The notes beneath the pieces are model-generated. The model was given only the letters and a program-made list of their open reading frames with translations, was not told the DNA's origin and did no database searches. Positions 25,737-61,959 of a DNA stretch of 64,000 nt are shown here, in pieces (position 1 is the first letter of the stretch; each line of letters opens with the position of its first letter). The stretch lies in sequence record NC_105512.1; one strand, written 5' to 3'. A program made the translations under genes and the position numbers. The DNA comes from Escherichia phage JLBYU43.

Positions 25737-26255
25737 TTATCTACTCTTTTCTTTTATAATATTAGATATAGTAGGTTGGCTAACACCAAACATAGCAGCT
25801 AAAGCCGATTGTCCAAATTCTTTGCTTCTAGGTTGATAATGTGTGCGTATCCAATATACATCTGCATCTGATAACTTACACCTTCCGTGCTGCTCTCCTT
25901 TAGCTCTCTTTTCAGGGCTATTTAATCCAGTATTGTACGCATGTTCCATATTTTCTTCTGCCGTCACCCACTCTAGGTTACTTTCCTCGTTGTTATACTT
26001 ATTGCCATCTAGGTGGTTAACAAAAGGTTTGTTATCTGGGTTAGACACATAATGCTCTGCAACTAGCCTATGTATCCTATACTTTCTACACTTACCTGTC
26101 TCATAGTAAAGATTTACTATTAAGTAACCTTGTCTATTCACTTGAGGTTTAAGAATTTTACCAGATAAGTAACTCAGAACATTTCCTTTATTACTTATCT
26201 GATATTTACCCTCAAAACCTGTTATATCTTTCCAGGTTTCCACTAGTATCCTCAA
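25737..26255 (-). CDS. HNH homing endonuclease
   Basis: NUMOD4-like N-terminus, HNH core (HRLVAEHY...NHLDGNK), C-terminal HTH. Confidence 0.7.
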   Translation of the reverse strand: MRILVETWKDITGFEGKYQISNKGNVLSYLSGKILKPQVNRQGYLIVNLYYETGKCRKYRIHRLVAEHYVSNPDNKPFVNHLDGNKYNNEESNLEWVTAEENMEHAYNTGLNSPEKRAKGEQHGRCKLSDADVYWIRTHYQPRSKEFGQSALAAMFGVSQPTISNIIKEKSR

Positions 26256-26599
26256 TCATATACCCACCATAACCCACGCTTACGCATGTCATGGTCGCGA
26301 TTATAATCATAATTTTCTGGATCTTTCATCACGCGGTGGAGTTCTTGACGATTCCCTTGACGAACCATCTTATTAGAATGCCACTTAACATTCTTACTAA
26401 TGGAATTCCAGTTATAACCATCCTTTTTCTCATTACGAATGGTTGCTTCCTTCATTTCTTTTTTGATGTCGTCCCAGGATTTGGCATAAATAACACGAAT
26501 CCAGTAGCCATTTTCTTTGAGGAAAGAATATTCTTGAGAGAATTGTTCTTTAGACTTCCACCACTGATCACCAGATTGTTTACGATAAGTACGGCTCAT
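26252..26599 (-). CDS. hypothetical protein
   Basis: 115-aa ORF. Confidence 0.45.
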   Translation of the reverse strand: MSRTYRKQSGDQWWKSKEQFSQEYSFLKENGYWIRVIYAKSWDDIKKEMKEATIRNEKKDGYNWNSISKNVKWHSNKMVRQGNRQELHRVMKDPENYDYNRDHDMRKRGLWWVYD

Positions 26600-26720
26600 A
26601 TTACCTCCATTAAGTCTTTTAAATTAACCTAATGTGGATGAATTTTATTATACATATATTATGTACCTTTATACAGAAAAACCCCAGACTACTTATTCAA
26701 TAGCTGGGGTTTGTTATTAA

Positions 26721-27035
26721 TTACAGATCGGGGCGTTCATCTTCGAAACAGCCTGAGCTGATTCCTTCTCCGAATCCTACAAAGCCGTCAAATTCATCGT
26801 TTGAGATGCCCATAATCATTGCTTCCATTTTCCTGATCTCCGAGATTTTCATACCTGCTTTACTATTCTTATAGTATTTGCGAGGATTCCCACACATCCA
26901 ACAAGAACAGATGCAAGGAGTGGTAGTAATAATGCCTAACCGCTTAGGACTTTCTTCATGTGGGAAGACTGTCCAATACTTTTTGCGATTGTTTTTCACA
27001 CGTTGCCGGTGATGGCGTCTTAATGCTCGATCCAC
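26721..27035 (-). CDS. hypothetical Cys-containing protein
   Basis: 104-aa ORF. Confidence 0.45.
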   Translation of the reverse strand: MDRALRRHHRQRVKNNRKKYWTVFPHEESPKRLGIITTTPCICSCWMCGNPRKYYKNSKAGMKISEIRKMEAMIMGISNDEFDGFVGFGEGISSGCFEDERPDL

Positions 27036-27116
27036 ACATTTCTCCTAAAACTTGGGAGATAAATGGAGTTTGCTCGACTACCTTGCGTAGTTGGGAGAAA
27101 TCGTATCCAAATCCCA

Positions 27117-27485
27117 TTATATCGCCTGAGTAAATGTACGACTAATAACGTCGTTCTGTTGTTCACGCGTCAATGCGTTAAATCGAACAGCATAGCCAGA
27201 GACACGGATGGTCAACTGAGGATATTTTTCAGGATGTTTCTGTGCATCCAAAAGCTGATCACGGCTTAACACATTGACATTTAGGTGCTGACCACACTCG
27301 ACTTGAGGAACCACTTCTACATCTACAATGCGGAAGGCCTCAGGGTCAAAATGAGGTGTGATACCCTCTAGATCTTCAACTAGAACCTTTTGTTTAAGTT
27401 CACCATCTTTAGAATATAGCTGAATGATCTGGTTATCATGAACAAGGTTAATTACGCCAGACTTAAGACTTTGATATGCTTTCAT
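27117..27485 (-). CDS. autonomous glycyl radical cofactor (GrcA/YfiD-like)
   Basis: 122 aa; C-terminus [27 protein letters not shown] closely matches my recollection of E. coli GrcA (glycyl-radical RVSGYAV). Confidence 0.7.
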
Positions 27486-27668
27486 TAGATCTCCCTGATG
27501 TTAGAATTTGGCTCAGCTTTTTGTTAACCCAGAAGCAAGATAAAAACTGGGAGGCAGGCTGTTTATTAAGTGAATACCCGATAATCGCTCGTAGTCCGGC
27601 TTGTGGATTGATAGTCCCATTCAGTTTAATAAACACAGAGATCTGGCACAAAGGCCTGATCTTATCTT

Positions 27669-27744
27669 TGGTAGTTAGTAGTGGAGTTGAACCACTGTAG
27701 TCGCTCCGTATGAAGGAGGTGCATAACCACTCTGCCAACTAACT
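27669..27744 (-). tRNA. tRNA with anticodon CAU (Met or Ile2)
   Basis: 7-bp acceptor stem, T-arm AGTGG-TTCAACT-CCACT, encoded CCA, loop TTCATAC. Confidence 0.55.
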
Positions 27745-27750
27745 ATAATT

Positions 27751-27825
27751 TGGTACCCAATCTAGGTTACGATCCTAGGTCTGAGAGTTATCGGCTCTCT
27801 GTTCTACCATTGAACTAATCGGGCT
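27751..27825 (-). tRNA. tRNA-Ile (GAU)
   Basis: perfect D-arm and anticodon stem, encoded CCA; unusual T-loop ATCGTAA. Confidence 0.5.
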
Positions 27826-28390
27826 TTTTAATACTTTTGGGATCTTTTCCTGTTAAGGCTTTATATCTTTTTCTTAAGCCATTATCAGAATAACCAAGTT
27901 CTTTAGCTGCTCTGACCCAGGAATAGTTAGATACCCAATATTCAATTTGTTCAGCAGATACACTATTATCTTTTACTTTTGACTCGCTATAATGTTTAAG
28001 ACAATAAGTAGACTTACCCGCTATTCTTATTCCACAGACTTTGCAAAAACTTTGTTTGGGCGGAGATATTCCCCTATCAAAACAAGTTTTCTCATAATGA
28101 TCCAGTTTAGACCTCACTATCAGGTTATCTAAATCATTATTAGATATATCTGTATCATCGTGATCTACTTCTAAATCAGAGGTTAATGAGGGTAGATCTT
28201 TATATACTCTCGCTAATGCTCTGCTTAGTAGTATATTTTTAGTTCCATTTTCGACGCCGAAATATTTATACCCAGTAGTATTAGTACGTATACTAAGTAA
28301 TTTATTACTTATTTTGGAATATACTCTACCCTCTCTAGAAATTAAATAATCTGGATACTCTGGTATTTCCTTAAATTCTGTTAAGTCCAT
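27815..28390 (-). CDS. HNH homing endonuclease
   Basis: NUMOD4-like N-terminus and HNH motif (EVDHDD...N). Confidence 0.7.
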   Translation of the reverse strand: MDLTEFKEIPEYPDYLISREGRVYSKISNKLLSIRTNTTGYKYFGVENGTKNILLSRALARVYKDLPSLTSDLEVDHDDTDISNNDLDNLIVRSKLDHYEKTCFDRGISPPKQSFCKVCGIRIAGKSTYCLKHYSESKVKDNSVSAEQIEYWVSNYSWVRAAKELGYSDNGLRKRYKALTGKDPKSIKKPD

Positions 28391-28683
28391 TACATCATCT
28401 CGTCTAGGTAAGAAGTATACTGGTATTTAGCTTCACCAGTTTTAGCTACTTCGACTTCTGTTCTAGGTACTTTTCGTACCAGACCATGAATCATCTTATA
28501 GTTAAGAGACTTAGATGGTTCGTGATCTTTTGGAAAGACTTGTTTAACCGTTACTACTTTGAAGCCTTCACGAGGTGTTAATACAACAACTTGATCACCT
28601 TCTTTAATTTTCCAGGACTCAGGAAATTCATAAGTGTAGCGTTGACCACCAGTTTGGAACACGACAGAAAGATAACGTTTCAT
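28390..28683 (-). CDS. hypothetical protein
   Basis: 97-aa ORF behind an early promoter. Confidence 0.5.
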   Translation of the reverse strand: MKRYLSVVFQTGGQRYTYEFPESWKIKEGDQVVVLTPREGFKVVTVKQVFPKDHEPSKSLNYKMIHGLVRKVPRTEVEVAKTGEAKYQYTSYLDEMM

Positions 28684-28757
28684 TTGGTTTCCCTCTCATT
28701 AATTTATATAAATATTATAACAAGAAATAAGAGAGAAGGCAAATGAATTTTTAAATT

Positions 28758-28832
28758 TGGTGCTCCCACCAGGAGTCGAACCTAGTTCAGATGCTTACAA
28801 GGCAACTGCATCGCCAGCAATGCTTTAGGAGC
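28758..28832 (-). tRNA. tRNA-Thr (UGU)
   Basis: acceptor and T-arm fold, CCA encoded, loop CTTGTAA. Confidence 0.6.
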
Positions 28833-28999
28833 AATAAACCCGTCATTTCAACGGGATTTCTTTTTCAAATACAGGAGACTTATCAGACATTACTGTCATC
28901 GCCAACTGCTGAAGAAACTCGAAGGATAGTGCTAGGCGTTCGTCACCAAGCTCAATCTCTACACGTTTCTTTTGTTTGTCAACCTTTAGTTTCAGGTTA

Positions 29000-29221
29000 T
29001 CAGCCATCTTCGGATTCTAGTTGCTCGGCTACTGCTAGCCAGTCTGGTAAAAGAAACTTAGTACGAAACTCTTCATAAGGTTCTTCTGGATAAAAGCTAA
29101 AATTTGCTTTCTCATCATTTAATAAAACCGAACCGTCTTCCTGTTCATAAGCTCGGTATGTTTCACCAATAATTAAAACTCGTCTATTAGGATTTTTATT
29201 ACGAAACTCAAAAACGTCCAT
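29000..29221 (-). CDS. hypothetical protein
   Basis: 73-aa ORF. Confidence 0.45.
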   Translation of the reverse strand: MDVFEFRNKNPNRRVLIIGETYRAYEQEDGSVLLNDEKANFSFYPEEPYEEFRTKFLLPDWLAVAEQLESEDG

Positions 29222-29236
29222 AACGTTTCCTTAAAT

Positions 29237-29311
29237 TGGTGCGGGATACGAGAGTCGAACTCGTGTCTACTGGTTGGAAGCCAGTTATTCTAGCCACTGA
29301 ACTAATCACGC
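29237..29311 (-). tRNA. tRNA-Gly (UCC)
   Basis: T-arm ACGAG-TTCGACT-CTCGT, CCA encoded, loop CTTCCAA. Confidence 0.6.
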
Positions 29312-29318
29312 ATTCGTT

Positions 29319-29394
29319 TGGCTGGAGAAGGAGGAATCGAACCTACCATTAACGGAGTCAAAGGCCGCTGTGCTAACCGTTACACTACTCTCCA
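29319..29394 (-). tRNA. tRNA-Gln (UUG)
   Basis: U1-A72 acceptor with discriminator G as in Gln tRNAs; loop CTTTGAC. Confidence 0.55.
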
Positions 29395-29400
29395 ATTGTT

Positions 29401-29476
29401 TGGCTGGAGTGCCTGGGATCGAACCAGGAACCTTCGGAGTCAGAGGCCGACGATCTGCCAATTGATCTACACTCCA
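29401..29476 (-). tRNA. tRNA-Gln (CUG)
   Basis: perfect acceptor TGGAGTG/CACTCCA, discriminator G, loop CTCTGAC. Confidence 0.55.
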
Positions 29477-29484
29477 ATAATTCT

Positions 29485-29685
29485 TCACTCTACAGGAACC
29501 GTGGCTATTGGTTCTGGTTCTTCTAGACGTTTGCCTTCATGATCTACACGAATAACACCACAACCTTCACAGATTACAACAGCACCGTAGCCTTCTTTAA
29601 CTTCGGCTTCTGTAATCAGACCAGAAAGATCACCAGTATCTCTACCCCACATATCAATGGAGCATTGTTTGCAGAAATCAGCCAT
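29485..29685 (-). CDS. small zinc-ribbon protein
   Basis: 66 aa with CxxC...CxxC. Confidence 0.45.
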   Translation of the reverse strand: MADFCKQCSIDMWGRDTGDLSGLITEAEVKEGYGAVVICEGCGVIRVDHEGKRLEEPEPIATVPVE

Positions 29686-29710
29686 ATTTTATTTCCTATT
29701 TAAGTTAACT

Positions 29711-29787
29711 TGGGGTGGCTAGTGGAATTCGAATCCACATAGGCCTGATTCACAATCAGGATCATTAACCAATTATGATATAGCCAC
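29711..29787 (-). tRNA. tRNA-His (GUG)
   Basis: extra 5' G (G-1), discriminator C, loop TTGTGAA, CCA encoded. Confidence 0.7.
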
Positions 29788-30362: not shown

Positions 30363-30456
30363 TGGCGGAAAAGATGGGAGTTGAACCCATAAGGCGGTAT
30401 TGCTACCACTCAACCGATTTCCAATCGGGTTTAGTCACCAGTCTATTTGCTTTTCC
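30363..30456 (-). tRNA. tRNA-Ser (GGA), long variable arm
   Basis: perfect acceptor GGAAAAG/CTTTTCC, CCA encoded, loop TTGGAAA. Confidence 0.5.
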
Positions 30457-31027
30457 GTTGTTCTGTTAATACTTTTGGGCTTAATCCGGTTAGTTTAGTA
30501 TATCGTCTACGTAAAGTGGACTCTGATACTTCTAGATCTTTAGCTGCCTTAACCCACCCCATTAATAATACCTTTTCAGTTATGTCTTCTAAGGACAATT
30601 CTGGTTTTATTAACTTTCCTGTAGGTTTTGGCTTACAATTTGTACATGTTACTGATCTCTGAAGCATTAGATTTCCACATAAGGGGCAAGGTACTCTACT
30701 ATCAGACCATCCATTATCTTTATTAGTTTTCTTCTGATGTTCTATTTTTGATAAAACTTGAAGATTATCTTTAGATAGATTCAGCCTATCTCTATCCTTG
30801 TGATCTACTTCTAATTCAGGGTCAAATAGATTATATAAGTCCCCAAATACATGAGAAATAATTCGGTGTATAAGTACCGAAGTTTGCTTACCATTTATCT
30901 GTAATTTTACAGCAGGGTATCCATCAACTATATATCTTGATAAAATTTTATTAGTAAATGTAGATAACACATCCCCTGTTTCATTTACTAAATACCCTGG
31001 TGCATCTTTTATTGGTACAAACTGCAT
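30443..31027 (-). CDS. HNH homing endonuclease
   Basis: NUMOD4-like N-terminus, HNH motif EVDHKDRDRLN, Cys-rich zinc ribbon. Confidence 0.7.
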   Translation of the reverse strand: MQFVPIKDAPGYLVNETGDVLSTFTNKILSRYIVDGYPAVKLQINGKQTSVLIHRIISHVFGDLYNLFDPELEVDHKDRDRLNLSKDNLQVLSKIEHQKKTNKDNGWSDSRVPCPLCGNLMLQRSVTCTNCKPKPTGKLIKPELSLEDITEKVLLMGWVKAAKDLEVSESTLRRRYTKLTGLSPKVLTEQRKSK

Positions 31028-31924: not shown

Positions 31925-32002
31925 TGGTGGATTGCCTGGGATTCGAACCCAGAACTGACGGATTAAAGGTCCGCTACTCTTATCCAGTTGAGCTAGCAAT
32001 CC
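31925..32002 (-). tRNA. tRNA-Lys (UUU)
   Basis: perfect acceptor GGATTGC/GCAATCC, loop CCTTTAA (C at position 33), CCA encoded. Confidence 0.5.
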
Positions 32003-32466
32003 AATTTTTCTACTAATAATTTAAAAGCATCTAGTACAGGTACTTCAAACCATTCTCCAGATACTATATAATCTTTAAGAAGATTATGTAATTCTTTCTC
32101 TGTACGTCTTTTATCCGACGAAAATCTGAAATGGTATAGCTTGTAGTCTCTATTAGGTGAATAAGTTTGATAACTTGCTAACCTCTCATTCACATCTATA
32201 GTCATACCTATTTTATACATGCCTGGCCATGCTGGATTACCAATTACATATACAAAACCTTCCGTTATAGGTATTTTATGCTCCCTTTTATACTTTAAGA
32301 GATTTAAGGCTGCCATTCGATAACAGAATCTAAACTCTGAAGTTTTTAACTTACCTTCTTTACCTGAAATTTCGTTATATTTGCTCATATAAGCTCTTAT
32401 GAGCTTATCATCTATAATGAAGTTATCAGGAAGGTTTAAGGCAGATAAAACTTTATTAATTAGCAT
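31993..32466 (-). CDS. T5orf172-domain protein (GIY-YIG-like)
   Basis: motif VYVIGNPAWPGMYKIGMT...ERL...YQTYSP. Confidence 0.55.
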   Translation of the reverse strand: MLINKVLSALNLPDNFIIDDKLIRAYMSKYNEISGKEGKLKTSEFRFCYRMAALNLLKYKREHKIPITEGFVYVIGNPAWPGMYKIGMTIDVNERLASYQTYSPNRDYKLYHFRFSSDKRRTEKELHNLLKDYIVSGEWFEVPVLDAFKLLVEKLDC

Positions 32467-33119: not shown

Positions 33120-33193
33120 TGGTGCGGTCGGAGGGAATCGAACCCTCAACTTCTGGTTGGCAACCAAAAATTATACCTTTTAACTACGAACGC
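33120..33193 (-). tRNA. tRNA-Gly (GCC)
   Basis: T-arm GAGGG-TTCGATT-CCCTC, loop TTGCCAA, CCA encoded. Confidence 0.5.
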
Positions 33194-33406: not shown

Positions 33407-33483
33407 TGGTACACCCACTAGGACTTGAACCTAGAACCCTCCGCTTAAGAGGCGGTAGCTCTAACCAATTGAGCTATGGATGT
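33407..33483 (-). tRNA. tRNA-Lys (CUU)
   Basis: acceptor ACATCCA/TGGGTGT, loop CTCTTAA, CCA encoded. Confidence 0.5.
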
Positions 33484-34101: not shown

Positions 34102-34282
34102 ATTTATCTTGTTTTTCGAGATCTTCAAATTCTAGATTTATAGAATGTCCTATGGACCTAGCATAATAGCTATCTCCAGCATCAGTATCTCTTTCAATTT
34201 GGTACAACCTGTACGCAACGATCGTACCTCTTCTCCTTTTCAGGGAGATACTAATCCTTCTCAGTTAAAGTTGCATATTATC

Positions 34283-34353
34283 TGGCAGGGGTAAAGGTAT
34301 TCGAAACCTTTTCATGGGTTTTGGAGGCCCACTAGCAACCTATGCGTACCCCA
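34283..34353 (-). tRNA. tRNA-Trp (CCA)
   Basis: 3' end CCCCTGCCA as in E. coli tRNA-Trp, loop CTCCAAA. Confidence 0.55.
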
Positions 34354-34362
34354 ATTATTAAT

Positions 34363-34437
34363 TGGCACACCCACGGAGAATTGAACTCCGATTCTCAGAT
34401 TGAAATCCTGATGTCCTAACCATTAGACGATAGGTGC
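34363..34437 (-). tRNA. tRNA-Glu (UUC)
   Basis: Glu-type D-arm GTCTAATGGTTAGGAC, loop ATTTCAA, CCA encoded. Confidence 0.55.
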
Positions 34438-34445
34438 ATTAATTT

Positions 34446-34526
34446 TGGTGGGGGATGGAGGACTCGAACCTCCGCGTGGTATACCCGGTCTACAGCCAGG
34501 CGCCGTCGCCACTGAGCCAATCCCCC
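34446..34526 (-). tRNA. tRNA, probable anticodon GUA (Tyr)
   Basis: perfect acceptor GGGGGAT/ATCCCCC and T-arm, CCA encoded; anticodon arm fold ambiguous. Confidence 0.45.
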
Positions 34527-34632
34527 ATATTTGAATGAAAAGTAAGTCGGTTAAACTCAAAGTGGAATATTTCAGGAAATCCTGACTTTACCCCTAAAAG
34601 CAACTCGCTTAATTACTTCTCATTCAGATATG

Positions 34633-37393: not shown

Positions 37394-37995
37394 TTTAGGT
37401 ATTTTTAAGAACTCTCGTAAAAGTCCTTAAAGATACCCAACGGTAGGTAGGGTCAGCCCCCTCAGATTAAGCTCTGCAGCCCTTCCGTCAGACAATATCT
37501 TCCAGTTTAAGTCAAGGTGACTTTGTGGTTATGTTCTCCGTATGTGAAGAACTCGGTTAGGCTTAGGTCATGACTCCCAGCCTACTGCTGCCGCTCAACA
37601 GGAATTATCGCGAATTACCTGTACTATTGGGCACCATTAGTGACATCTCTCATGTCAGCATTTCCCACTTTGTGGATAGCTTGAAAAACTACTCCGATAT
37701 GGAGAAAGAACTTCACTATCCTAGAAATACCTTCTAAAGTTCTTCTTTAGCCTGGACATAGTTAAATCGTAATAAAACTATTCAGCAGACTAGTTGGTTA
37801 GCCTGGAACCAACTACCGCGTGGTTTAGGCAGTGCGTAACTAACCTAGGAAGCTTTTACGTTAAAAGCATCAGTTATCCAGTTCTTACCGACCGTAGGAT
37901 TCGAACCTACATCTTCCACCAGTTACGGCTTGATAATACCAATTATACTAGGACGGCAGTGTTACTACATAAGTGATTTCCACACACCACTATTA

Positions 37996-38478
37996 CTAAC
38001 CAAAGTTAGTAAATTCTTTATGTAAGGATTCTCTTAATATCTTAGAGGCCTCGAAAGCCTCTTCCGCAGTTTTAAACCCTCTTTTACTGTAATTTTTTCC
38101 TTCATGTCTTACTTGGTATCTCCAGGAAGAGCCTTCCCAACTTACTCCTTTGTACCCAGAAGTATTATTGCATTGTTGGTTTCTATTCGCATTGTTTTGC
38201 GATCTAGAGGCGTCCCTTAGATTATTTTTCCTATTATTTCTAGGATTAGTATCCTTATGATCTACTTCTTCAGGCCTATATCCATAGTACATAATAAACA
38301 ATAAGACATGCAGTTGATAGGTGTCGCCCTGAAATCCCACATCTGGGTGTGATTTCTTATTATTGGCACAACACTCTTTCAAACCTTTCTTTGTTTTCCT
38401 ATATAGTACCCCATTATCAGGATCAGCTACAAAATATTTTTCAAGTATTTCTTTAGTAGGGTATTCTTTCCTTTTCAT
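37996..38478 (-). CDS. HNH endonuclease with AP2-like domain
   Basis: HNH motif (EVDHKDTNPRNN) plus C-terminal YKGVSWEGSSWRYQV. Confidence 0.65.
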   Translation of the reverse strand: MKRKEYPTKEILEKYFVADPDNGVLYRKTKKGLKECCANNKKSHPDVGFQGDTYQLHVLLFIMYYGYRPEEVDHKDTNPRNNRKNNLRDASRSQNNANRNQQCNNTSGYKGVSWEGSSWRYQVRHEGKNYSKRGFKTAEEAFEASKILRESLHKEFTNFG

Positions 38479-39663: not shown

Positions 39664-40485
39664 TTAAAATAGATCATATTCTAATCTATTGGGATTTTCT
39701 CGGTATCCATAAGACGTAAGGGTTCCTCTCATGTACTCTGCGTCAACAGGATTAGATGTTACTAGAACCACTTTTAGTGGTCTTTGACCTAAAAATAGTA
39801 TATGATCTAATAAATCTTTTCCTTGTACCTCTGGATCCCCTAAATCTGAGTCCATAAATAAATAGGATCCTGTGAAACTAAACATATCTGATAGTTCCAG
39901 CGCACCTATAACTGTACGACAAATAATGGACATTTCAGGTAGATCTCTAACATCGTCTATTAGAATATTGGTCTGCTTCCCAATTTCTGCATTACATAAA
40001 CCATTTACTAGTTTTTCTCTTTCCCCTTTAGCTTGTTCGAAAGTGGTGAAGCCAGGAGATACGAAAAACTTTCCACCTAATGTAATGCTATACGCAAAAC
40101 CCTCGGAGAGGAGTTCTACACCTACGGTTTTATCAGTATTAATCCTATTTAACTTAAAATTTGTCTCTCTTAGATTAAGAATTCTGTTATCCCACGGTAT
40201 GGTATTTATATGGTCGATCATATCAGGTGGCTCTTCACCATAATGGAGCAACCACGCTATTCGGTGCCCATAAATAATTGTGGGTTTATTACCTAAGAGC
40301 AAGCTAACTCTGATGTACCCATTAGAGTTCTTACTACATATTTCTCTCCCAGCATATAGGGTGTGCCAAGTTTTATTCTTGTATTTATTAGGCTTATAAA
40401 ATAATTTACCTGTATAAGGATTATATTCTATAATTTCTCGAATATAATCTATATATGATAGTATTTGTTTTTGTAATTTACCCAT
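39664..40485 (-). CDS. HNH homing endonuclease
   Basis: HNH motif (HRIAWLLHYG...IDHIN...N). Confidence 0.65.
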   Translation of the reverse strand: MGKLQKQILSYIDYIREIIEYNPYTGKLFYKPNKYKNKTWHTLYAGREICSKNSNGYIRVSLLLGNKPTIIYGHRIAWLLHYGEEPPDMIDHINTIPWDNRILNLRETNFKLNRINTDKTVGVELLSEGFAYSITLGGKFFVSPGFTTFEQAKGEREKLVNGLCNAEIGKQTNILIDDVRDLPEMSIICRTVIGALELSDMFSFTGSYLFMDSDLGDPEVQGKDLLDHILFLGQRPLKVVLVTSNPVDAEYMRGTLTSYGYRENPNRLEYDLF

Positions 40486-43828: not shown

Positions 43829-44305
43829 TCACATCTCAGCCATTTCAGCTTCAGTAATAACTGTGTTGCACAATGCATCTACAGCTTCATTACCACTAAT
43901 ACCAGAATGCCCTTTAACCTTAATAAAGGTAGGATTAGTATTATGAAAGTTGATATACTGCTGTGTTAATTTAAATGCTTCCTGCCAAAGTTCTAGATTA
44001 AGAGGAACTTCACCATCTGCTTTCTTCCAGCCTTTCCTTTGCCAAGAAAACATCCAACTTTCCATACCATTTTTGCAATAAGCAGAATCAGTATAGATAG
44101 CAATTGGTCTATTATCTTTTTTAACAGACCAACGTAGAGCTTCTACAATAGCTGTGAGTTCCATCTCATTATTTGTAGTTTTAGGATTATAACCAGATTT
44201 AGAACCTAAACGATCGTCGTTATCATCATAGACAATAAAACCCCAAGCACCTGGACCTGGGTTAGACTTACAAGCACCATCTGTGTAAATGTGGAAAACG
44301 CTCAC
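43829..44305 (-). CDS. rnh: ribonuclease H
   Basis: RNase HI signature (YTDGAC...ELTA...TDS). Confidence 0.8.
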   Translation of the reverse strand: MSVFHIYTDGACKSNPGPGAWGFIVYDDNDDRLGSKSGYNPKTTNNEMELTAIVEALRWSVKKDNRPIAIYTDSAYCKNGMESWMFSWQRKGWKKADGEVPLNLELWQEAFKLTQQYINFHNTNPTFIKVKGHSGISGNEAVDALCNTVITEAEMAEM

Positions 44306-44850
44306 TTATTAAGTTCCTCTATTGGTGGGTAATAGTTGGTATAGAAATCTTCTATAACTGCTTCGCTACCATGAAGTGTTTTTCTTAGTTCATTAGCCTT
44401 TATGACCGCACTTTCTAGGTCTAAGTAGTCAAAAACACACCCGTAAATATTTTTACCATTATTATCAATCACCTGTACTTGCCATTTCTGTAGTTGTTTG
44501 TTCCAGTGTACGCCTAGATATCCAGATTTACTCGATGCGGTACAATTTCTGTTATTAGACTGGCTTGTAGCTTCTCTTAGATTTATCCACCTATTATCTG
44601 ACCTAATTCTATTTTTGTGGTCTATTAAATCAGGTATTGATCCTGTCATGTATAGAAAGGCTAACCTATGAGCTAAATAATCTATTTTATCTATCTTAAT
44701 AGTTATATAGCCATCTTTTCTTAGGTATCCAGCGGGCGAACCTGCTTTTCCTCCCCTACCACGACTTATCTTATTAGTAAATATACCGGTATCTGGGTCA
44801 TAGATTAGTATTTCTTTTAATCTTTCTTGGCTAGGTAACTTTTTACTCAT
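44302..44850 (-). CDS. HNH homing endonuclease with AP2-like domain
   Basis: HNH motif (DHKNRIRSDN) plus YLGVHWNKQLQKWQVQV. Confidence 0.7.
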   Translation of the reverse strand: MSKKLPSQERLKEILIYDPDTGIFTNKISRGRGGKAGSPAGYLRKDGYITIKIDKIDYLAHRLAFLYMTGSIPDLIDHKNRIRSDNRWINLREATSQSNNRNCTASSKSGYLGVHWNKQLQKWQVQVIDNNGKNIYGCVFDYLDLESAVIKANELRKTLHGSEAVIEDFYTNYYPPIEELNK

Positions 44851-45226
44851 CTAACCATCCTATGTCTATACTAAGTAATGCTTTTATTCCTGTAATACCT
44901 GTACCATAAGTATTATATCGAATAGCACTTCTGCTCTTTACTTCAAGTATATTTTCATACTCTGTATTTTCTAGAATTTCTGTAGATATACCTAAATATC
45001 CTAATTGATCTTCCTCGTCCCAACCCATATCTTCTAGAAGATTTAGACGTAACTCTACCTTCTCATCTCCATTGCCTACAGAGTGGTAGTCTTCTAAAGT
45101 CCTGAATTTAGAAGTGATAGAGTCTAGTATTAATAATACCTGTTCCTTAGTAATAGTTTCTTTATCACTCTGCAAGTAATTGGAGTAATTCAGAAGGGCT
45201 TGTTCTAATTCAATTTCTTTACTCAT
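44843..45226 (-). CDS. hypothetical acidic protein
   Basis: 127-aa ORF. Confidence 0.45.
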   Translation of the reverse strand: MSKEIELEQALLNYSNYLQSDKETITKEQVLLILDSITSKFRTLEDYHSVGNGDEKVELRLNLLEDMGWDEEDQLGYLGISTEILENTEYENILEVKSRSAIRYNTYGTGITGIKALLSIDIGWLDE

Positions 45227-51404: not shown

Positions 51405-51694
51405 TCCTATAGTGTACTTCGCTTCTAACAGAGGATCAACAAAAAGATCTTGTTTATCAACTTACAAATATATTATACCAATATATGTGGGAGAAAGCAA
51501 CTACAATTTTAAATAAGCATATGATATTGCATTTAAATAAAAAATTTGCTTGCTTATAGAGGCAGAAATATGATACTAGATAATCATTTATTTATACGCA
51601 AAATATTACAGTATTAGATGACGAAAGAAAATTTTAATTGACATAGTGGATAATGTTTAGTATAATAGGTGTAAAAATTCTGTGGAGAAGGGGA

Positions 51695-52558
51695 ATGCCG
51701 AAAAAATTAACTCAAGAAGAAGTAGATAAATGCCTAGCCGAACGTGGTTTTACTATGGTGGATAAGCCTTACCAAAATTCTAGGTATAGGCATACGTATC
51801 AGTGTGAATATGGTCATCAATGGACATCTAAATTTGATGCTATTAGGAATGGAAAGACCAATTGTCCTACTTGTTCTATTAATAGCCGTAAACTAGATAT
51901 CGATAAAATTAATACTGTATTACAGGGTAGGGGTATTACATTGTTGGAGGGCTATAAAAATAGTGCCGATATAAATACTAAATTTAGGTGTGTTTGTGGT
52001 CATGAGTGGGCTACTACACTTAATAGTATAATTAATAGAGGTAGTGGCTGCCCCTCTTGTGCTATTAATAAACAAAAACTTAGTATTAATACTATAAACG
52101 ATCGTCTTACTGCTAGGAATATTAGAATAGTAGGTGAATATAGTAATGCGAATATTAAGACCACCTTTCTCTGTGGTGCAGGGCATCAGTGGGAAGCTAC
52201 TCCAGGATCCGTGTTAGGAGGAAATGGTTGTCCTTACTGTAAGTATAGGGATTTAGAAAATACTAAGGTATATATTATGCATAGCCCTTCACATGGTGTT
52301 AAAATAGGAAGGTCTAACAATCCAGAGCGCAGACTTTTACATATTAAATCTAGTAGTCACCTTACTGATCTGGAAGTAATTAAAGTATTTGAAATTGGAG
52401 AATATAGTGATGCTGTTCAAATCGAAAAATTAGCTCATAATTACTTTAAAGAACAGAATTGCCAATACAAAGATTTTGATGGTGCTACGGAATTCTTCAA
52501 TATTGAGCCAGAAGTAGCTATAAAATTTATCGAGGAAATAATCAATGACAGAAAATGA
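51695..52558 (+). CDS. T5orf172-domain protein with three zinc-ribbon repeats
   Basis: three ~47-aa repeats CxxGHxW...GxGCPxC followed by a T5orf172/GIY-YIG-like C-terminus; start at ATG 51695 with a GGAGAAGGGG RBS. Confidence 0.55.
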   Translation: MPKKLTQEEVDKCLAERGFTMVDKPYQNSRYRHTYQCEYGHQWTSKFDAIRNGKTNCPTCSINSRKLDIDKINTVLQGRGITLLEGYKNSADINTKFRCVCGHEWATTLNSIINRGSGCPSCAINKQKLSINTINDRLTARNIRIVGEYSNANIKTTFLCGAGHQWEATPGSVLGGNGCPYCKYRDLENTKVYIMHSPSHGVKIGRSNNPERRLLHIKSSSHLTDLEVIKVFEIGEYSDAVQIEKLAHNYFKEQNCQYKDFDGATEFFNIEPEVAIKFIEEIINDRK

Positions 52559-55029: not shown

Positions 55030-55243
55030 AAATGTTAGTCTTATTGACCTGAGTAAACTCAATGTAGAGTTTCAGGGGGTTTTAATGAAGCACTGGGAAA
55101 CTGGCTATAAGGATGGTGTTGAATCCTGTGCTACTATGCTAGAATTTATTGCTAATACCTTAGTGGAGAAAGGCAATAAAGAATTAGCTGAGCTGTTAGA
55201 CAGTATTGGGCAAAACTTCAGAGAGCAGGTGAAAAATGCGTAG
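54998..55243 (+). CDS. hypothetical protein
   Basis: 81-aa ORF. Confidence 0.45.
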   Translation: MAFSSQKLPSENVSLIDLSKLNVEFQGVLMKHWETGYKDGVESCATMLEFIANTLVEKGNKELAELLDSIGQNFREQVKNA

Positions 55244-56012
55244 ACTAATCATTGTTAGTGGTGCTGGTTTAAGTGTTGATAGTGGTATCCGTGCATTCCG
55301 TACAGATACTGCTAGTGGTAAAGCAATGTGGGACGAGTACGATCTAGAAGAGGTGTGTGATATTCATGCTTTTCGTGGCCAGTTCTACTGGAAAACCCAC
55401 GAGTTCTACAACAAGCGTCGTCAGGAGTTGCGGACTGTTGAACCTAACATTGCGCACCTTCGTATTGGGGAATGGTTCCAGCGGTATCCAGAAGCGGTAC
55501 TAAACATTACTACTAACGTAGATGACTTGCTGGAAAGAGCTGGTGTGCCGAAAAGTGAGGTTCTCCACGTTCATGGCTATTTACCGGAAGTTCGTATTAA
55601 GGAATTGCCAGACCGAAAAGAGTACATCCTAGATGTGGGCTATACTGCTATTGATCCTGATGAATTTTATTGGGCAAAGCCTAACGTTGTATTCTTTGGT
55701 GAAGCAGCCCCCGAATATGCTCTGATGCATGCCACTTTTGATAGTCTTACAGCTAACGATATGGTTATCGTGGTTGGGTGTAGTAACCAAGTTATCAACT
55801 TCAACTGGGAACTTTTTCCTGCACTAGCTCGTGGTACTAAGATGATGGTTGTTAACCCAACTATTAACTACTTGGAACAATCCCTGTACGAAGAGCGTGG
55901 TGTTACTGTATGGCGTGCTGGGGCTGCCGAAGTTTTCGGTAACAAACACTTTATTGGCCAGGTAGAAGCTTTTATGGAAGGAACTATTTATGCCCCAGAA
56001 AAGCATGTGTGA
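55236..56012 (+). CDS. SIR2-family (sirtuin-like) NAD-binding protein
   Basis: sirtuin motifs GAGLSVDSGIRAFR, VVFFGE and VVGCS; no CxxC zinc-ribbon insert visible. Confidence 0.65.
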   Translation: MRRLIIVSGAGLSVDSGIRAFRTDTASGKAMWDEYDLEEVCDIHAFRGQFYWKTHEFYNKRRQELRTVEPNIAHLRIGEWFQRYPEAVLNITTNVDDLLERAGVPKSEVLHVHGYLPEVRIKELPDRKEYILDVGYTAIDPDEFYWAKPNVVFFGEAAPEYALMHATFDSLTANDMVIVVGCSNQVINFNWELFPALARGTKMMVVNPTINYLEQSLYEERGVTVWRAGAAEVFGNKHFIGQVEAFMEGTIYAPEKHV

Positions 56013-57782: not shown

Positions 57783-58380
57783 ATAATATTTATATTGAAT
57801 TGAGAGACATTAGTAAAAATTGATTTTGCTAATTTTTCTTAGTGAAGCTGACAATGGATTTACGGCGAGAGTGGTCGATGACCCGTAAATAGCTGCATAA
57901 GGTACGTTGCTAGAGCTTTATGAAAAAGTTTTTCTTGTTTACAATCCGCGATACGGAACAGTTAGGCTGCCCCATTAAGGGTTGTTTTAACTATTACTAG
58001 TGTTTATATTGCATTAGTTAATCTTCAATTAAGTGATCTGTGTACCCTGAATTCGGAAAGGTAAATCCAAACCGTGCATATTTAGCTCGTTATATAGGCA
58101 GAGCTTTATATGGGGGTGCGAACGAAAAGAGCAGCGAATGGCGGCACGTACAGTAGTCACCTACCAATAGGATAGCGAGGACAAATAGAATCGGCTTAGC
58201 GGCCAATGACCTAGGTTCTATTCTGTATATGAGCGAAGAGAGCACAGCACTGAGATATGATAACTTATTCATATTGTTTGATGATAATTGATGTTTACGT
58301 AAATAGTAGTAATAGTTGTTCTATTCTTTCTGAATAGTCCTAAAGAAAAGATTTCGATTAATCAACACAGGAGTATTGTT

Positions 58381-61170
58381 GTGTTTTCTATCCTCCAAGG
58401 TCACGCCGGGTTTTCTCGTGATTTAGCAACAGGTATTTGGCGAGAAATCAAAGCGGAAGATTATACCTTTGCCAAACGATTCTCGAAAGAGCATCCAGAA
58501 GGTAAACCAGCTTCTATGCCCTTCAAATTTGATGTAATAGAAGAGCACGACCCACAAAGCCTTGCTGAAATGTTACCACTTATGAGACGTTTAACGTCTG
58601 ACCCTCATATCGTTGTGGTACGAGGTCGATGTCTTGCACCTAAAAATAATGTGCGACGTAAGAAAGGTAACTTTAATGTATCCAACCCTAGCAATATTAT
58701 TGCTATGGACGTGGATGGTATCCTGGATACCGGTGGGTACGACAAGTTTAATCTTGTAGGTATGGCCCGTCACATTATTAAGATGTTGAATAGTATTAGT
58801 GAGGACATGTTTCCTCTTGATGCAGGGTTTATTGCTCATGCATCGTCTTCGGCTGGCCTAAAACCAGGTATCCGAATGCACTTAATGCTAGAATCTAACG
58901 TCAAGGTAACTCAAGGTCAGTTAAAGTTCTTATTTACGTCTATCAATGATAGTAGTAAGCAAAAATTCGGTTTTGATATTGCCGACTTAGCTTATTATTC
59001 ATCTGTCCAGCTTCACTATTTTGCCGACCCTTTATTTAGCGATGGTATTGTTGATCCGTTTAAAGCGGAGAGTAAGCCACGTCTGGTGTATGTTAAAGGT
59101 TCGAAAGTAAATTTGCCTAATAATCTGGTTGACTATGAAACAACTAGAGGGGAGTTTAAGGAAGAGTTTTATTCTTTACTTGATCAAATTAAAGGCAAAA
59201 AGATTGCTTCTGATAAAGTAGAAGAAACCATCAGCGAATTGGAAGAAGCTGAGGATGGGGTGTACTTGCGTATTATCCCCAAACTATACCATAGAGCATT
59301 AGAGGATGGTGTTGATTTCGCATGGCTAGAACGTGAGATTAAACCCGCTTTATCTGAATATATTGCAACTAAAGATAACAGTCGTAATATTCAAGATTAC
59401 TTTAATAACGGTCGTAAGCAGGCTCTCAAAGCGTTTGTTAATAATTCTAAACGCGAGATTCCATTAAATCTGAAAGGTGTTCCTCTTAAGAAATTAGAAG
59501 TGGATTCTCCACCAGAAGTTCCATACCTGAAGATTAACATTGTGCCCCCAAAAGGGCATATAACATTTGTTAAGGCAAGTCTTGGTACTGGCAAAACTAC
59601 GGCAGTAACTAAATGGCTGGACGCAGGTGTTCTTCCTGGCAACTTTTTAGCAGTTACAAATACTAGAGCGCTGGTATCTTCAAACGCTAAGAAATTTAGC
59701 GCAGGACAATATGATAAGTCTGTAGATATGCTCAACTTTAAACGTGGAGCTATTGATCGTATGTCCACAACTATTCACTCTTTGCATAAGTTCAAGAGTT
59801 TTATTGGTCAAATTGATGCAATCTTTATCGATGAATGTGATGCTGTAATGAATGACCTATTATTCGCCCCGGTTGTTAAACAGCGTCGTGAATGTATTCA
59901 AGTTCTACGTGACATCCTCATGACAGCTAAAACTGTAATTCTATCAGATGGTGATATTAGTGCCGAAACTATTGAAGCATATGGTTCTCTAATTGATTTT
60001 GATAAACCAGTAGCATTTTATAATCATCACCGTAAAATGCTGTCAAAAGCTCATGCTTATGAGTTCCCTGACGAATCCAGTATTTGGGTTGCACTTCAAA
60101 CATCTCTAGAGATGGGTGAGAAGTCAATCCTAGTATCTGACTGTGGACCTGATGAATTAAATGAAAAGGGAATGGCATTACGTCGTAATACCGGTGCGTT
60201 AGTTAAAGAAATTCACTCAAACTCTACGTCTGATGTAGATATCCGACGTATTCTGGATTATACAACTAATGAGCTAATTGATCAACAGATTGATTGTTTG
60301 TTATGTAGTCCATCTGTAACGAGTGGTGTTGACTTTAACTATTTTGATAACGTATTCGTAATCACTAGAACCTCAAACCAAGCGCCAAACATGCGTTTCC
60401 AAGCAATCAGGCGCGACCGTGGTGCTCAGAACATTTATTATTTTATTGATAAATCTACGAGTGGATTTTCTGCAGGTTCCGAGCAATATAATATTGACGA
60501 GGGTTGGATTGAGTTAGCCCAACAACTGTACGCACGTCGTCGTGAGCTGGAATCTAGAAACTATACCAGTACTTTGCGTTATTATCTTCTCGATCAAGGT
60601 GCAACTATTGATATCTTCAGTGAAAGCTGGGGGACTATCGAAGGTGCAGGCAAAGAGTATACAGAAGAGCGAATCAAAGCCATTTTGTATTCAACTCCTG
60701 ATTATTGTGCTCCACGCCATGCAGATGCGTATGAAGCTAAACTACTTCTTGTTCGCTATTATCATCTTGAGTCTATTAAAGATGTAACAGTTGAGCATGT
60801 TGAGCAATATATCAAGGATAAACCTAATGATCGAGCTGCATTCTTCCATAAAATGCACGAGATGTTCTGGGAAGATATTAAGAAGTGTTCAAATGTCACT
60901 ATCAAACCATTCATAGAAGCTCTGAAAGGTAAGAAGAAAGATTTCTTCCTTAAAACAGGTCAGAGTGCTAACCCAAAATACGCCAGAATGTATCTTGGTA
61001 TGATGGGTATTGGTAAGGATATGAACACGGAGAATATTGTAGACTGGTACAGAACCTATTGTAAAATCGAATGTATGCCAATCCCGTATAAGTTTATGAC
61101 TGATGAGGAGAAACATATGCATGATGAAGCAATGGCAGAGCTAGGCGCTAGAAATGACAGTGAAGAATAA
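58381..61170 (+). CDS. large Walker-ATPase/helicase-like protein (putative replication initiator or origin-binding protein)
   Basis: 929 aa; GTG start after an AGGAG RBS; Walker A SLGTGKTT and Walker B-like IFIDECD. Confidence 0.6.
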   Translation: MFSILQGHAGFSRDLATGIWREIKAEDYTFAKRFSKEHPEGKPASMPFKFDVIEEHDPQSLAEMLPLMRRLTSDPHIVVVRGRCLAPKNNVRRKKGNFNVSNPSNIIAMDVDGILDTGGYDKFNLVGMARHIIKMLNSISEDMFPLDAGFIAHASSSAGLKPGIRMHLMLESNVKVTQGQLKFLFTSINDSSKQKFGFDIADLAYYSSVQLHYFADPLFSDGIVDPFKAESKPRLVYVKGSKVNLPNNLVDYETTRGEFKEEFYSLLDQIKGKKIASDKVEETISELEEAEDGVYLRIIPKLYHRALEDGVDFAWLEREIKPALSEYIATKDNSRNIQDYFNNGRKQALKAFVNNSKREIPLNLKGVPLKKLEVDSPPEVPYLKINIVPPKGHITFVKASLGTGKTTAVTKWLDAGVLPGNFLAVTNTRALVSSNAKKFSAGQYDKSVDMLNFKRGAIDRMSTTIHSLHKFKSFIGQIDAIFIDECDAVMNDLLFAPVVKQRRECIQVLRDILMTAKTVILSDGDISAETIEAYGSLIDFDKPVAFYNHHRKMLSKAHAYEFPDESSIWVALQTSLEMGEKSILVSDCGPDELNEKGMALRRNTGALVKEIHSNSTSDVDIRRILDYTTNELIDQQIDCLLCSPSVTSGVDFNYFDNVFVITRTSNQAPNMRFQAIRRDRGAQNIYYFIDKSTSGFSAGSEQYNIDEGWIELAQQLYARRRELESRNYTSTLRYYLLDQGATIDIFSESWGTIEGAGKEYTEERIKAILYSTPDYCAPRHADAYEAKLLLVRYYHLESIKDVTVEHVEQYIKDKPNDRAAFFHKMHEMFWEDIKKCSNVTIKPFIEALKGKKKDFFLKTGQSANPKYARMYLGMMGIGKDMNTENIVDWYRTYCKIECMPIPYKFMTDEEKHMHDEAMAELGARNDSEE

Positions 61171-61387
61171 AAAATGGGAAACAAGGAAGTTTCCAGTAAA
61201 AGAGCGTAAAGTTCCTGTTTACGACACTTCGGAAAAGCTATGTAGGGTGGTACCACACAGATTAGCTGGCATCCCTAACATATCCGAGTGGTTACTTAAA
61301 CAACGGAAAACTAACGTGTCTCTTCGCATCGGCTTTGAGTTAGATAAAGTCTATGCTGAACTTGCTTCTTTGCTCAAGGAACAATAA
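61154..61387 (+). CDS. hypothetical protein
   Basis: 77-aa ORF overlapping the end of the ATPase gene. Confidence 0.4.
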   Translation: MTVKNKKWETRKFPVKERKVPVYDTSEKLCRVVPHRLAGIPNISEWLLKQRKTNVSLRIGFELDKVYAELASLLKEQ

Positions 61388-61959
61388 TGTTTATAAGAAT
61401 TCCCGAATTTCCTGACTATGCAGTGAATGAAAATGGAGATGTATACTCTTTTCTCTCCAACAAATTTCTTGCTCCAGGTCAAAATACTGCGGGGTACTTA
61501 CAAGTTAACTTAATGAAAGATGGCTCCCCTATAAATGTGAGAGTGCATAGGCTAGTGGCTTATTGTTTTGGTCTACTTCCTGAGTTAGAATCAGAGTTGG
61601 TAGTAGACCATATAAATGATAATAAGTTAGATCCTAGATTAGTTAACCTACAGGTATTAACCCACAAAGCTAATGCAATAAAATTCCATAATAAAAACTG
61701 GAGAGAACATCCAGATTTCTTAGCAGAGATTAAGAAATTAGAAAGTATGGGTATAACTAAAGCAGCTGCATCTTATAGGTGTAGGGCTATGTTTAAATAT
61801 AATGTGGTTATTCCTTCCGGTGATACTCTAACCTTAGAGTTAATAGAATCTACATATCAGAAAACCAATTCTTGGAGAAAAACCGCGAGAGTACTTGGAT
61901 TTAAAAGCGCTCCTGCCATTCTTTATAGATATAACAAGCTGAAAGCAGCTTCTTTATAA
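61387..61959 (+). CDS. HNH homing endonuclease
   Basis: NUMOD4-like N-terminus and HNH motif VVDHINDNKLDPRLVN. Confidence 0.7.
   Translation: MFIRIPEFPDYAVNENGDVYSFLSNKFLAPGQNTAGYLQVNLMKDGSPINVRVHRLVAYCFGLLPELESELVVDHINDNKLDPRLVNLQVLTHKANAIKFHNKNWREHPDFLAEIKKLESMGITKAAASYRCRAMFKYNVVIPSGDTLTLELIESTYQKTNSWRKTARVLGFKSAPAILYRYNKLKAASL

What the first reader, a model, noticed from the sequence alone, without database searches (positions are those of the whole stretch)
25737..61959. High density of free-standing HNH homing-endonuclease genes
Seven HNH genes (25737, 27815, 30443, 37996, 39664, 44302, 61387), several with NUMOD4 or AP2-like DNA-binding modules, are interspersed among tRNA and nucleotide-metabolism genes. 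Their insertion points (next to tRNAs, rnh, and the helicase-like gene) mark probable recent mobile-intron-like invasions and likely sites of strain-to-strain variability.
Basis: partly seen in the sequence, partly recalled or inferred. Interest (0 to 1): 0.4.

Follow-up and report, generated by a model that had tools for sequence, protein, structure and literature searches.

The report
Variable homing endonuclease genes in T5-like phage
This T5-like phage carries seven selfish HNH nuclease genes (plus two of another nuclease family) inserted between its tRNA and nucleotide-metabolism genes; each is missing from most related phages, a pattern already well known for this phage group.

Summary
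All seven ORFs carry the Pfam HNH_3 domain, and no further HNH_3 gene is in the window. The window is a T5-like phage (Demerecviridae). None of the seven is conserved. Each sits in its place in only 0.7-15% of the 222-478 related phage records that match that query. Most relatives show a clean empty site of 13-90 bp, and some hold a different cassette. DNA around the endonuclease genes is 98-100% identical to two relatives, while the backbone further away is 72-92%. That indicates recent lateral transfer with co-conversion. No intron and no intein splicing domain was found, so the genes are free-standing.

Three additions:
- Two more variable nuclease genes, of the T5orf172 (GIY-YIG clan) family, lie inside the span at 31993-32466 and 51653-52558.
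- The AP2-like module is weakly but specifically supported.
- The gene at 39664-40485 is a complete HNH gene inserted in frame just after the start codon of a cREC (predicted cyclic-phosphate-processing) gene. This gives a 273-aa fusion, conserved under purifying selection, that one GenBank record labels as an intein.

The parts
25737..26255 (-). HNH_3 + NUMOD4 free-standing homing endonuclease gene (172 aa, TTG start overlapping the upstream stop as TTGA), of the I-HmuI type
   Evidence: Pfam NUMOD4 1e-16 and HNH_3 4e-8. PDB 1U3E (I-HmuI) E=4e-24. Absent from all 28 relatives; most have a 64-bp empty site. Filled in 21/345 records.
27815..28390 (-). HNH_3 + NUMOD4 endonuclease gene (191 aa). 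Its start overlaps the upstream stop (TAATG). Its last 10 nt overlap tRNA-Ile(gat).
   Evidence: Filled in 3/432 records, i.e. KKP_3831 at 99% (counted as both its GenBank and RefSeq entries) and MSP1 at 87%. In T5 the T5.058 ortholog lies 15 nt from tRNA-Ile.
30443..31027 (-). HNH_3 endonuclease gene (194 aa), ortholog of T5 hegC (T5.064). It lies between tRNA-Leu(tag) and tRNA-Ser(gga), and its last 14 nt overlap tRNA-Ser.
   Evidence: 96% aa identity to T5 at the same position. Filled in 25/427 records.
31993..32466 (-). Its last 10 nt overlap tRNA-Lys(ttt).
   Evidence: Pfam MUG113 8e-17 and T5orf172 6e-14. Lies in a variable island present in 17% of 28 relatives. Filled in 85/376 records.
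37996..38478 (-). HNH_3 + AP2-like endonuclease gene (160 aa). A promoter-like TTGCTT-17-TATAAT ends 6 nt before its ATG. It lies 38 nt upstream of a tRNA-like gene at 37886-37957.
   Evidence: Present in 1 of 28 relatives (phage H8, 99%); the others have an empty site of 88-250 bp. Filled in 60/440 records.
39664..40485 (-). In-frame fusion. A complete HNH_3 + AP2-like endonuclease (residues 1 to about 165) is joined to a cREC_REC domain (residues 173-257). It uses the start codon and promoter (40544-40516) of the cREC gene.
   Evidence: Pfam. Relatives have a free-standing 104-aa cREC gene at the same site. The HNH part is collinear with the whole length of paralogs 44302 and 37996. Filled in 27/439 records. 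The architecture is seen only in this phage group. pN/pS is about 0.18 in both halves.
44302..44850 (-). HNH_3 + AP2-like endonuclease gene (182 aa). It overlaps the upstream ORF 44843-45226 by 8 nt and the rnh start by 4 nt.
   Evidence: At 96-99% aa in 4 of 28 relatives, 81% in 2 and about 60% in others. The remaining relatives carry unrelated small genes or nothing between rnh and thyA. Filled in 34/222 records.
51653..52558 (+). Zn-finger (DUF4379/CapR) + T5orf172 (GIY-YIG clan) homing endonuclease gene (301 aa), inserted upstream of nrdD and overlapping its start.
   Evidence: Pfam. Variable island. Filled in 25/436 records, where it is annotated 'GIY-YIG nuclease family protein' or 'endonuclease'. 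One relative has an HNH gene at this same site (L007). The architecture is described in PMC10448857.
61387..61959 (+). HNH_3 (+ weak NUMOD4) endonuclease gene (190 aa). It is inserted between the stop of ORF 61154-61387 (overlap ATAATG) and the promoter of the helicase-like gene 62026-62730.
   Evidence: Most relatives have a 13-bp empty site, and some have a different 721-bp insert. Filled in 11/478 records. The DaisyDussoix copy is frameshifted.

Best explanation
The seven ORFs are free-standing HNH (His-Me finger) homing endonuclease genes of a T5-like phage. They come in two architectures: NUMOD4-HNH_3-C-terminal HTH (25737, 27815, 30443, 61387) and HNH_3-AP2-like (37996, 39664, 44302).

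Inferred mechanism, from established knowledge of phage homing endonucleases and not shown here: during mixed infection, the enzyme nicks or cuts the allele of a related phage that lacks the gene, close to the insertion point. Recombinational repair from the genome that carries the gene then copies the gene and adjacent DNA into the broken genome (intronless homing with co-conversion).

Shown here:
- Each gene is on the same strand as its neighbours.
- Each is wedged between an upstream stop codon or tRNA and a downstream promoter, tRNA or start codon.
- Most have overlapping stop/start codons, so they ride on host-phage transcription.
- Three nuclease genes (27815, 30443, 31993) end inside the next tRNA. 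Published work on T4 SegB and the T5 F-Tfl enzymes proposes that tRNA processing then trims their mRNA and keeps expression low.

Each insertion site is a presence/absence or alternative-cassette polymorphism across relatives. Two T5orf172 (GIY-YIG clan) genes behave the same way.
For: - Domains and intact catalytic motifs.
- Similarity to the solved nicking homing endonuclease I-HmuI.
- AP2-like module.
- The window is a T5-like phage.
- Sporadic distribution at fixed sites, with clean empty sites.
- All seven coincide with the low-conservation islands of the region.
- Different nuclease genes, of the HNH and GIY-YIG-clan families, occupy the same sites in other relatives.
- 98-100% identity tracts around the genes against a 72-92% backbone.
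- A decayed copy in one relative.
- No introns.
- Junction sequences.
- 30443 is the ortholog of T5 hegC.
- Literature: endonuclease genes are the main source of differences among T5-like genomes (PMC10644984). T5 F-Tfl enzymes lie in the tRNA cluster (PMC2330249). BASEL phages are 'infested' with homing endonucleases, with gene conversion (PMC8594841).
Against: - No enzymatic activity, target site or homing event is shown for any of these nine genes.
- The HNH_3 score of 27815 is just below Pfam's cutoff.
- Record counts include GenBank/RefSeq duplicates and miss copies below about 85% identity, so the frequencies are approximate.
- The per-relative count may undercount, because the profile was built from this window's own genes.
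- Strong purifying selection on the 39664 fusion could mean a function beyond selfish spread.
Confidence: 0.85

Rival explanations
1. The patchy distribution reflects ancestral presence followed by many independent deletions, not recent invasions.
For: One copy is visibly decaying: the DaisyDussoix homolog of 61387 is frameshifted. So losses do occur.
Against: - Each gene is present in only 0.7-15% of matching records.
- Copies are 96-99% identical between genomes whose backbone is about 91% identical overall and 72-92% nearby.
- Empty sites are uniform, intact intergenic sequences with promoter and terminator in place.
Confidence: 0.07
2. The HNH proteins are domesticated phage enzymes rather than selfish elements. 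Possible roles are the nicks in T5 DNA, host DNA degradation, or exclusion of competing phages.
For: The T5 F-Tfl enzymes are reported as site-specific endonucleases (Akulenko 2004, cited). That they act as nickases is from my memory only. Both halves of the 39664 fusion are under purifying selection.
Against: A core function is incompatible with absence from 85-99% of close relatives, or with replacement by unrelated cassettes at the same sites. Competitive exclusion is itself the phenotype of homing, not an alternative to it.
Confidence: 0.08
3. The gene at 39664-40485 is an intein-containing cREC gene, as annotated for phage SelmaRatti. The HNH part would be spliced out of the protein.
For: - The insertion is in frame.
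- It begins just after the cREC start codon.
- It is followed by Thr172, giving a Gln-Thr junction.
Against: - No Hint or intein-splicing domain is found by Pfam, even at E<=5.
- The insert begins with Gly/Lys, not Cys/Ser/Thr, and no His-Asn is present at its end.
- Residues 1 to about 165 align from Met1 to the C-terminus with the free-standing paralogs 44302 and 37996.
- BASEL called inteins by genome comparison.
Confidence: 0.03

Closest known systems
T5 heg genes / F-Tfl HNH endonucleases (hegA, C, D, hegE = F-TflV, hegF = F-TflVI; Akulenko et al. 2004)
   Same: Same phage family, same HNH_3/NUMOD4 architecture, same location among the tRNA genes and same overlap with the downstream tRNA. 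30443 is the ortholog of hegC: 96% aa identity at an identical position.
   Different: The other six have no T5 ortholog at their site. T5 carries its own different set (hegA, D, E, F; an HNH gene between nrdA and nrdB; one after the primase gene), which this window lacks.
I-HmuI of Bacillus phage SPO1 (PDB 1U3E), a nicking HNH homing endonuclease
   Same: 25737 aligns over 107 residues at E=4e-24. The HNH-AP2 family profile also hits it at 3e-9.
   Different: I-HmuI is encoded in a group I intron. The genes here are free-standing: no intron was found.
T4 Seg/Mob free-standing homing endonucleases, especially SegB in the T4 tRNA cluster (PMC2330249)
   Same: Free-standing and located between tRNA genes. 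Their mode is intronless homing with co-conversion of flanks. Expression is probably limited by tRNA processing.
   Different: SegB is a GIY-YIG enzyme, and T4 is an unrelated phage family.
T5orf172 homing endonucleases with CapR/DUF723/DUF4379 zinc fingers (Barth et al. 2023, PMC10448857)
   Same: 51653-52558 has exactly this architecture, and 31993-32466 has the nuclease domain. The paper reports that such genes are abundant in T5-like phages and lie at recombination boundaries.
   Different: Nothing notable.
HNH-AP2 endonucleases, the proposed ancestors of plant AP2/ERF domains
   Same: The HNH nuclease is followed by a module of three strands and a helix. Its family profile hits plant AP2/ERF structures.
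   Different: Support is marginal (E about 0.01). Pfam AP2 is not reached by single sequences.

Membership tests
HNH (His-Me finger) homing endonucleases, HNH_3 / I-HmuI type | HNH_3 catalytic core with the conserved D-H ... N ... N-L ... N/H residues | tested here: met
   Pfam HNH_3 in all seven, with 27815 just under the cutoff. D77, H78, N90, L91 and N102 are invariant in 28 family members.
HNH (His-Me finger) homing endonucleases, HNH_3 / I-HmuI type | Attached sequence-reading DNA-binding modules (NUMOD4, HTH, AP2) | tested here: met
   NUMOD4 above the cutoff in 25737 and 27815, and weak in 61387. AP2-like by profile, E about 0.01. Weak C-terminal HTH hits.
HNH (His-Me finger) homing endonucleases, HNH_3 / I-HmuI type | Presence/absence polymorphism at a fixed site among otherwise collinear relatives | tested here: met
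HNH (His-Me finger) homing endonucleases, HNH_3 / I-HmuI type | Site-specific nicking or cleavage of the allele that lacks the gene, and biased inheritance in mixed infection | not testable with these tools
   Needs enzyme assays and phage crosses.
Intron-encoded homing endonucleases | The gene lies inside a self-splicing group I or II intron | tested here: not met
   Rfam at gathering thresholds finds only tRNAs in the 64-kb window. Flanking genes are intact at the junctions.
Inteins (tested for 39664-40485) | Hint splicing domain, N-terminal Cys/Ser/Thr, and C-terminal His-Asn followed by Cys/Ser/Thr | tested here: not met
   No Hint or intein Pfam hit at E<=5. The insert starts with Gly2/Lys3 and ends Lys-Gln before Thr172. 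Only the +1 Thr fits.
T5 heg / F-Tfl set | Orthology with a T5 heg gene at the same genomic position | tested here: met
   Met for 30443 only, which equals hegC/T5.064 at 96% aa. Not met for the other six: their best T5 matches are 30-60% aa, and for g27815 and g44302 they lie at other sites.
T5orf172 / GIY-YIG-clan homing endonucleases | T5orf172/MUG113 nuclease domain, usually with CapR-like zinc-finger DNA-binding repeats, and variable presence | tested here: met
   Pfam, variability, and the family description in PMC10448857.
Terminase-associated HNH proteins (packaging) | Located next to the terminase and portal genes and conserved in all relatives | tested here: not met
   Neighbours are tRNA, nucleotide-metabolism and replication genes. 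The genes are not conserved.

The most novel reading that the evidence does not exclude
The 273-aa HNH-cREC protein (39664-40485) may be more than an accident. In this reading it is a stably maintained chimera in which a homing endonuclease has taken over the start codon and promoter of a predicted RNA-repair/ADP-ribose-cyclic-phosphate-processing gene. The cREC domain can then be made only as a fusion, so the selfish gene is hard to lose without losing cREC. Alternatively, the two activities may cooperate.

The fusion persists intact in a second lineage that is 25% diverged, with equally strong constraint on both halves. Among the 150 best hits of a search of 1.84 billion representative proteins it has no counterpart outside this phage group.
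Probability: 0.3. Interest if true: 0.4.

Novelty: already known. Interest (0 to 1): 0.15.

Why it matters
It matters little beyond annotation. The result shows that the variable parts of this phage's early region are almost entirely selfish nuclease cassettes, each with a short tract of co-converted DNA around it.

Practical consequences:
- These regions should be masked in phylogenies.
- They are dispensable targets for genome reduction or engineering of T5-like therapeutic phages.

The one item worth a small experiment is the in-frame HNH-cREC fusion. It is mislabelled as an intein in at least one GenBank record. It could show how a selfish gene becomes locked to a host-phage gene.

Tried and rejected
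- **Structure of the fusion.** An AlphaFold2 model from a 5-sequence alignment reached only pLDDT 53.7. I ran no fold search, because low-confidence models give meaningless matches. I noted only its secondary-structure pattern: three strands plus a helix after the HNH part, then an alternating alpha/beta C-terminus.
- **Word-indexed homolog search with the fusion.** It returned only two clusters, too few for a deep alignment.
- **Intein reading of 39664.** Considered and rejected.
- **Intron-encoded reading.** Rejected.
- **Single-sequence AP2 tests.** Inconclusive. Only the family profile gave specific hits.
- **Gap sizes in the tRNA region.** They are inflated where the flanks align only partly. 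For 27815 I relied on the T5 annotation and the record searches instead.
- **Whether any record holds all seven.** Not established. No record covers 80% or more of window 25-45 kb, and none of the 30 genomes examined in detail (the 28 relatives plus KKP_3831 and MSP1) has more than four of the seven.

Full report
**What the window is.** Megablast of three large parts of the window finds 526-589 phage records, almost all T5-like phages of Salmonella, Escherichia and Klebsiella. Best-place identities fall mostly in the 80-95% band. No record covers 80% or more of window 25-45 kb. Gene order matches the annotated Tequintavirus DaisyDussoix and T5 itself.

**Check of the observation.**
- The seven coordinates are ORFs, and all seven match Pfam HNH_3.
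- NUMOD4 is above its cutoff in 25737 and 27815 and weak in 61387.
- A profile built from the seven finds no other HNH_3 ORF among 354 ORFs of the window.
- The catalytic D-H ... N-L ... N/H residues are present in all seven.
- 25737 matches the solved nicking homing endonuclease I-HmuI (1U3E) at E=4e-24.
A profile of 28 family members hits I-HmuI and then two plant AP2/ERF structures at E about 0.01. I accept it as weakly supported.
- The stated context is correct: 23 tRNAs, plus RNase H, ThyA, NrdB, NrdA, NrdD and an origin-binding/primase protein.

**Presence or absence in relatives.** I fetched three overlapping regions from 28 complete T5-like genomes and compared the flanks, the gap between them and the gene.
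- 25737 is absent from all 28. Most have a 64-bp empty site.
- 27815 is absent from all 28.
- 30443 is present only in T5 and DaisyDussoix.
- 37996 is present only in phage H8.
- 39664 is present only in H8 and SHSML-45. The others have 311 bp there instead of 822.
- 44302 is present at 96-99% in four relatives and diverged in a few more. The rest carry other cassettes or nothing.
- 61387 is present only in DaisyDussoix, where it is frameshifted. Most relatives have a 13-bp empty site.

Protein-level scoring agrees. A conservation scan of window 24-63.5 kb shows that every one of the seven genes is a low-conservation island.

**Counts across GenBank phage records.** Each query was the gene plus 250-bp flanks. 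The table gives records with a filled site over records matching the query.

| Gene | Filled / matching |
|---|---|
| 25737 | 21/345 |
| 27815 | 3/432 |
| 30443 | 25/427 |
| 37996 | 60/440 |
| 39664 | 27/439 |
| 44302 | 34/222 |
| 61387 | 11/478 |

These counts include RefSeq duplicates and miss copies below about 85% identity.

**Other nuclease genes at the same and other sites.** In the relatives, other HNH genes occupy these or other recurrent sites. Examples are between nrdA and nrdB, after the primase gene, and between several tRNAs. By my profile, the equivalent region of a relative holds 0-7 HNH genes, median 1. This phage is therefore at the high end.

**Anatomy of the insertions.**
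- Empty and filled sites differ by clean insertions. These lie between an upstream stop codon and the downstream promoter (25737, 61387) or in place of a terminator hairpin (37996).
- Every gene is co-oriented with its neighbours.
- Start codons overlap upstream stops as TTGA (25737), TAATG (27815), an 8-nt overlap (44302) and ATAATG (61387).
- 27815, 30443 and the nuclease gene 31993 end 10-14 nt inside tRNA-Ile, tRNA-Ser and tRNA-Lys. T5 hegC and hegD have the same arrangement.
- For T4 SegB and the T5 F-Tfl enzymes, this arrangement was proposed to limit expression through tRNA processing (PMC2330249).
- Rfam finds no intron in the window, so the genes are free-standing.

**Signs of recent transfer.** KKP_3831 and MSP1 are about 91% identical to the window overall. 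Identity rises to 98-100% over 27.5-28.7 kb, 31.5-32.5 kb and 38-41.2 kb, which are the tracts around the nuclease genes. It falls to 72-92% elsewhere. KKP_3831 shares 27815, 37996, 39664 and 31993 at 96-99% aa. MSP1 shares 37996 and 39664 at 99% and 27815 at 86%. This pattern is expected from homing with co-conversion. It argues against simple ancestral presence followed by loss.

**Additions to the finding.**

*Two missed nuclease genes.* The variable islands at 31993-32466 and 51653-52558 encode T5orf172/MUG113 proteins of the GIY-YIG clan. The second also has DUF4379/CapR zinc fingers. They are filled in 85/376 and 25/436 records. Barth et al. 2023 describe exactly this family as abundant in T5-like phages. 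One relative has an HNH gene at the nrdD site instead (L007). The span therefore holds nine mobile nuclease genes, 15% of its DNA.

*The 39664-40485 fusion.* This gene is not a plain endonuclease gene.
- Relatives carry a free-standing 104-aa cREC_REC gene at this site.
- Here a complete HNH-AP2-type endonuclease takes its place at the 5' end. It aligns from Met1 to its C-terminus with paralogs 44302 and 37996. It begins at the cREC start codon, behind the shared promoter at 40544-40516, and reads without a stop into cREC from about codon 2.
- The cREC part is 51% identical to T5's cREC and keeps the DD, D-x-D and TSNP motifs.
- A 75%-identical fusion lies in the same synteny on a metagenomic contig. 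Between the two, the non-synonymous and synonymous proportions are about 0.13 and 0.73 in both halves. Synonymous sites are saturated, so the dN/dS of about 0.05 is only indicative.
- Among the 150 best hits of a search of 1.84 billion representative proteins, only this cluster spans both halves.
- The GenBank record of phage SelmaRatti labels it 'intein-containing'. BASEL called inteins by genome comparison. I find no Hint domain, no nucleophile at the insert's first residue and no His-Asn at its end. I read it as a gene fusion.
- cREC domains are predicted, but not shown, to resolve cyclic phosphates in RNA repair or ADP-ribose metabolism (PMC9503650).

**Comparison with what is known.** T5 has annotated heg genes, including F-TflV and F-TflVI, in the same region. 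Akulenko et al. 2004 reported F-TflI, II and IV from T5, and the SegB paper places their ORFs in the tRNA cluster (cited). A 2023 study of BF23 states that homing endonuclease genes are the main source of differences among T5-like genomes (PMC10644984). The BASEL paper describes the same 'infestation' and its gene conversion. All seven genes have 87-99% identical counterparts in GenBank records.

**Verdict.** The mechanism (cutting of empty alleles and repair-mediated copying) is inferred from family membership and population pattern, not demonstrated. The only mildly unusual element is the conserved in-frame HNH-cREC fusion.

Noticed in passing
Both are variable among relatives. The second has CapR/DUF4379 zinc fingers and sits upstream of nrdD.
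   Followed up: yes
window 39664-40485 (-): An HNH endonuclease is fused in frame to a cREC_REC domain at the cREC start codon. The equivalent gene is annotated 'intein-containing hypothetical protein' in phage SelmaRatti (MZ501103), but no intein features were found.
   Followed up: yes
window 37886-37957 (-): Rfam finds a tRNA-like gene here (35.5 bits) that ARAGORN does not call. Relatives annotate the equivalent as tRNA-SeC(tca) or tRNA-OTHER. It lies 38 nt downstream of HNH 37996. A single-sequence fold gave a cloverleaf-like structure with no energy signal (z = -0.3).
   Followed up: partly
L013 and L026 (relatives), at the site equivalent to window ~37996: Many relatives carry an insert of about 160 bp, without an obvious ORF, inside the terminator hairpin that marks the empty site. 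This gives a gap of 235-250 bp instead of 88 bp. It may be a small RNA or the remnant of an element.
   Followed up: no
window 44843-45226 (-): This 127-aa ORF has no Pfam match and lies in the same variable island as HNH 44302. The rnh-thyA interval is a hypervariable cassette site: relatives hold 0-3 unrelated small genes there, including a 197-aa ORF.
   Followed up: partly
window 33120-33193 and 33407-33483; also 34280-34627: tRNA-Gly(gcc) and tRNA-Lys(ctt), and the region around tRNA-Glu/Tyr, lie in islands present in fewer than a third of 28 relatives. The tRNA set itself varies, not only the nuclease genes. This window also lacks the Trp, Phe and Asp tRNAs that T5 and DaisyDussoix have.
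   Followed up: no
L001 (DaisyDussoix) 2715-3292: The homolog of HNH 61387 is split by a frameshift into a 120-aa 'putative homing endonuclease' and a 70-aa 'hypothetical protein'. It is a decaying copy.
   Followed up: partly
window 55236-56012 (+): By synteny and length, this ORF corresponds to the Sir2-like / SIR2-family gene of DaisyDussoix and MSP1. Together with cREC it may belong to the predicted phage RNA-repair/NAD-ADPr network described in PMC9503650.
   Followed up: no
window 30363-30456 (-): ARAGORN calls tRNA-Ser(gga) here (94 nt), but Rfam does not report it at the gathering threshold. Its 5' end overlaps the last 14 nt of HNH 30443.
   Followed up: no
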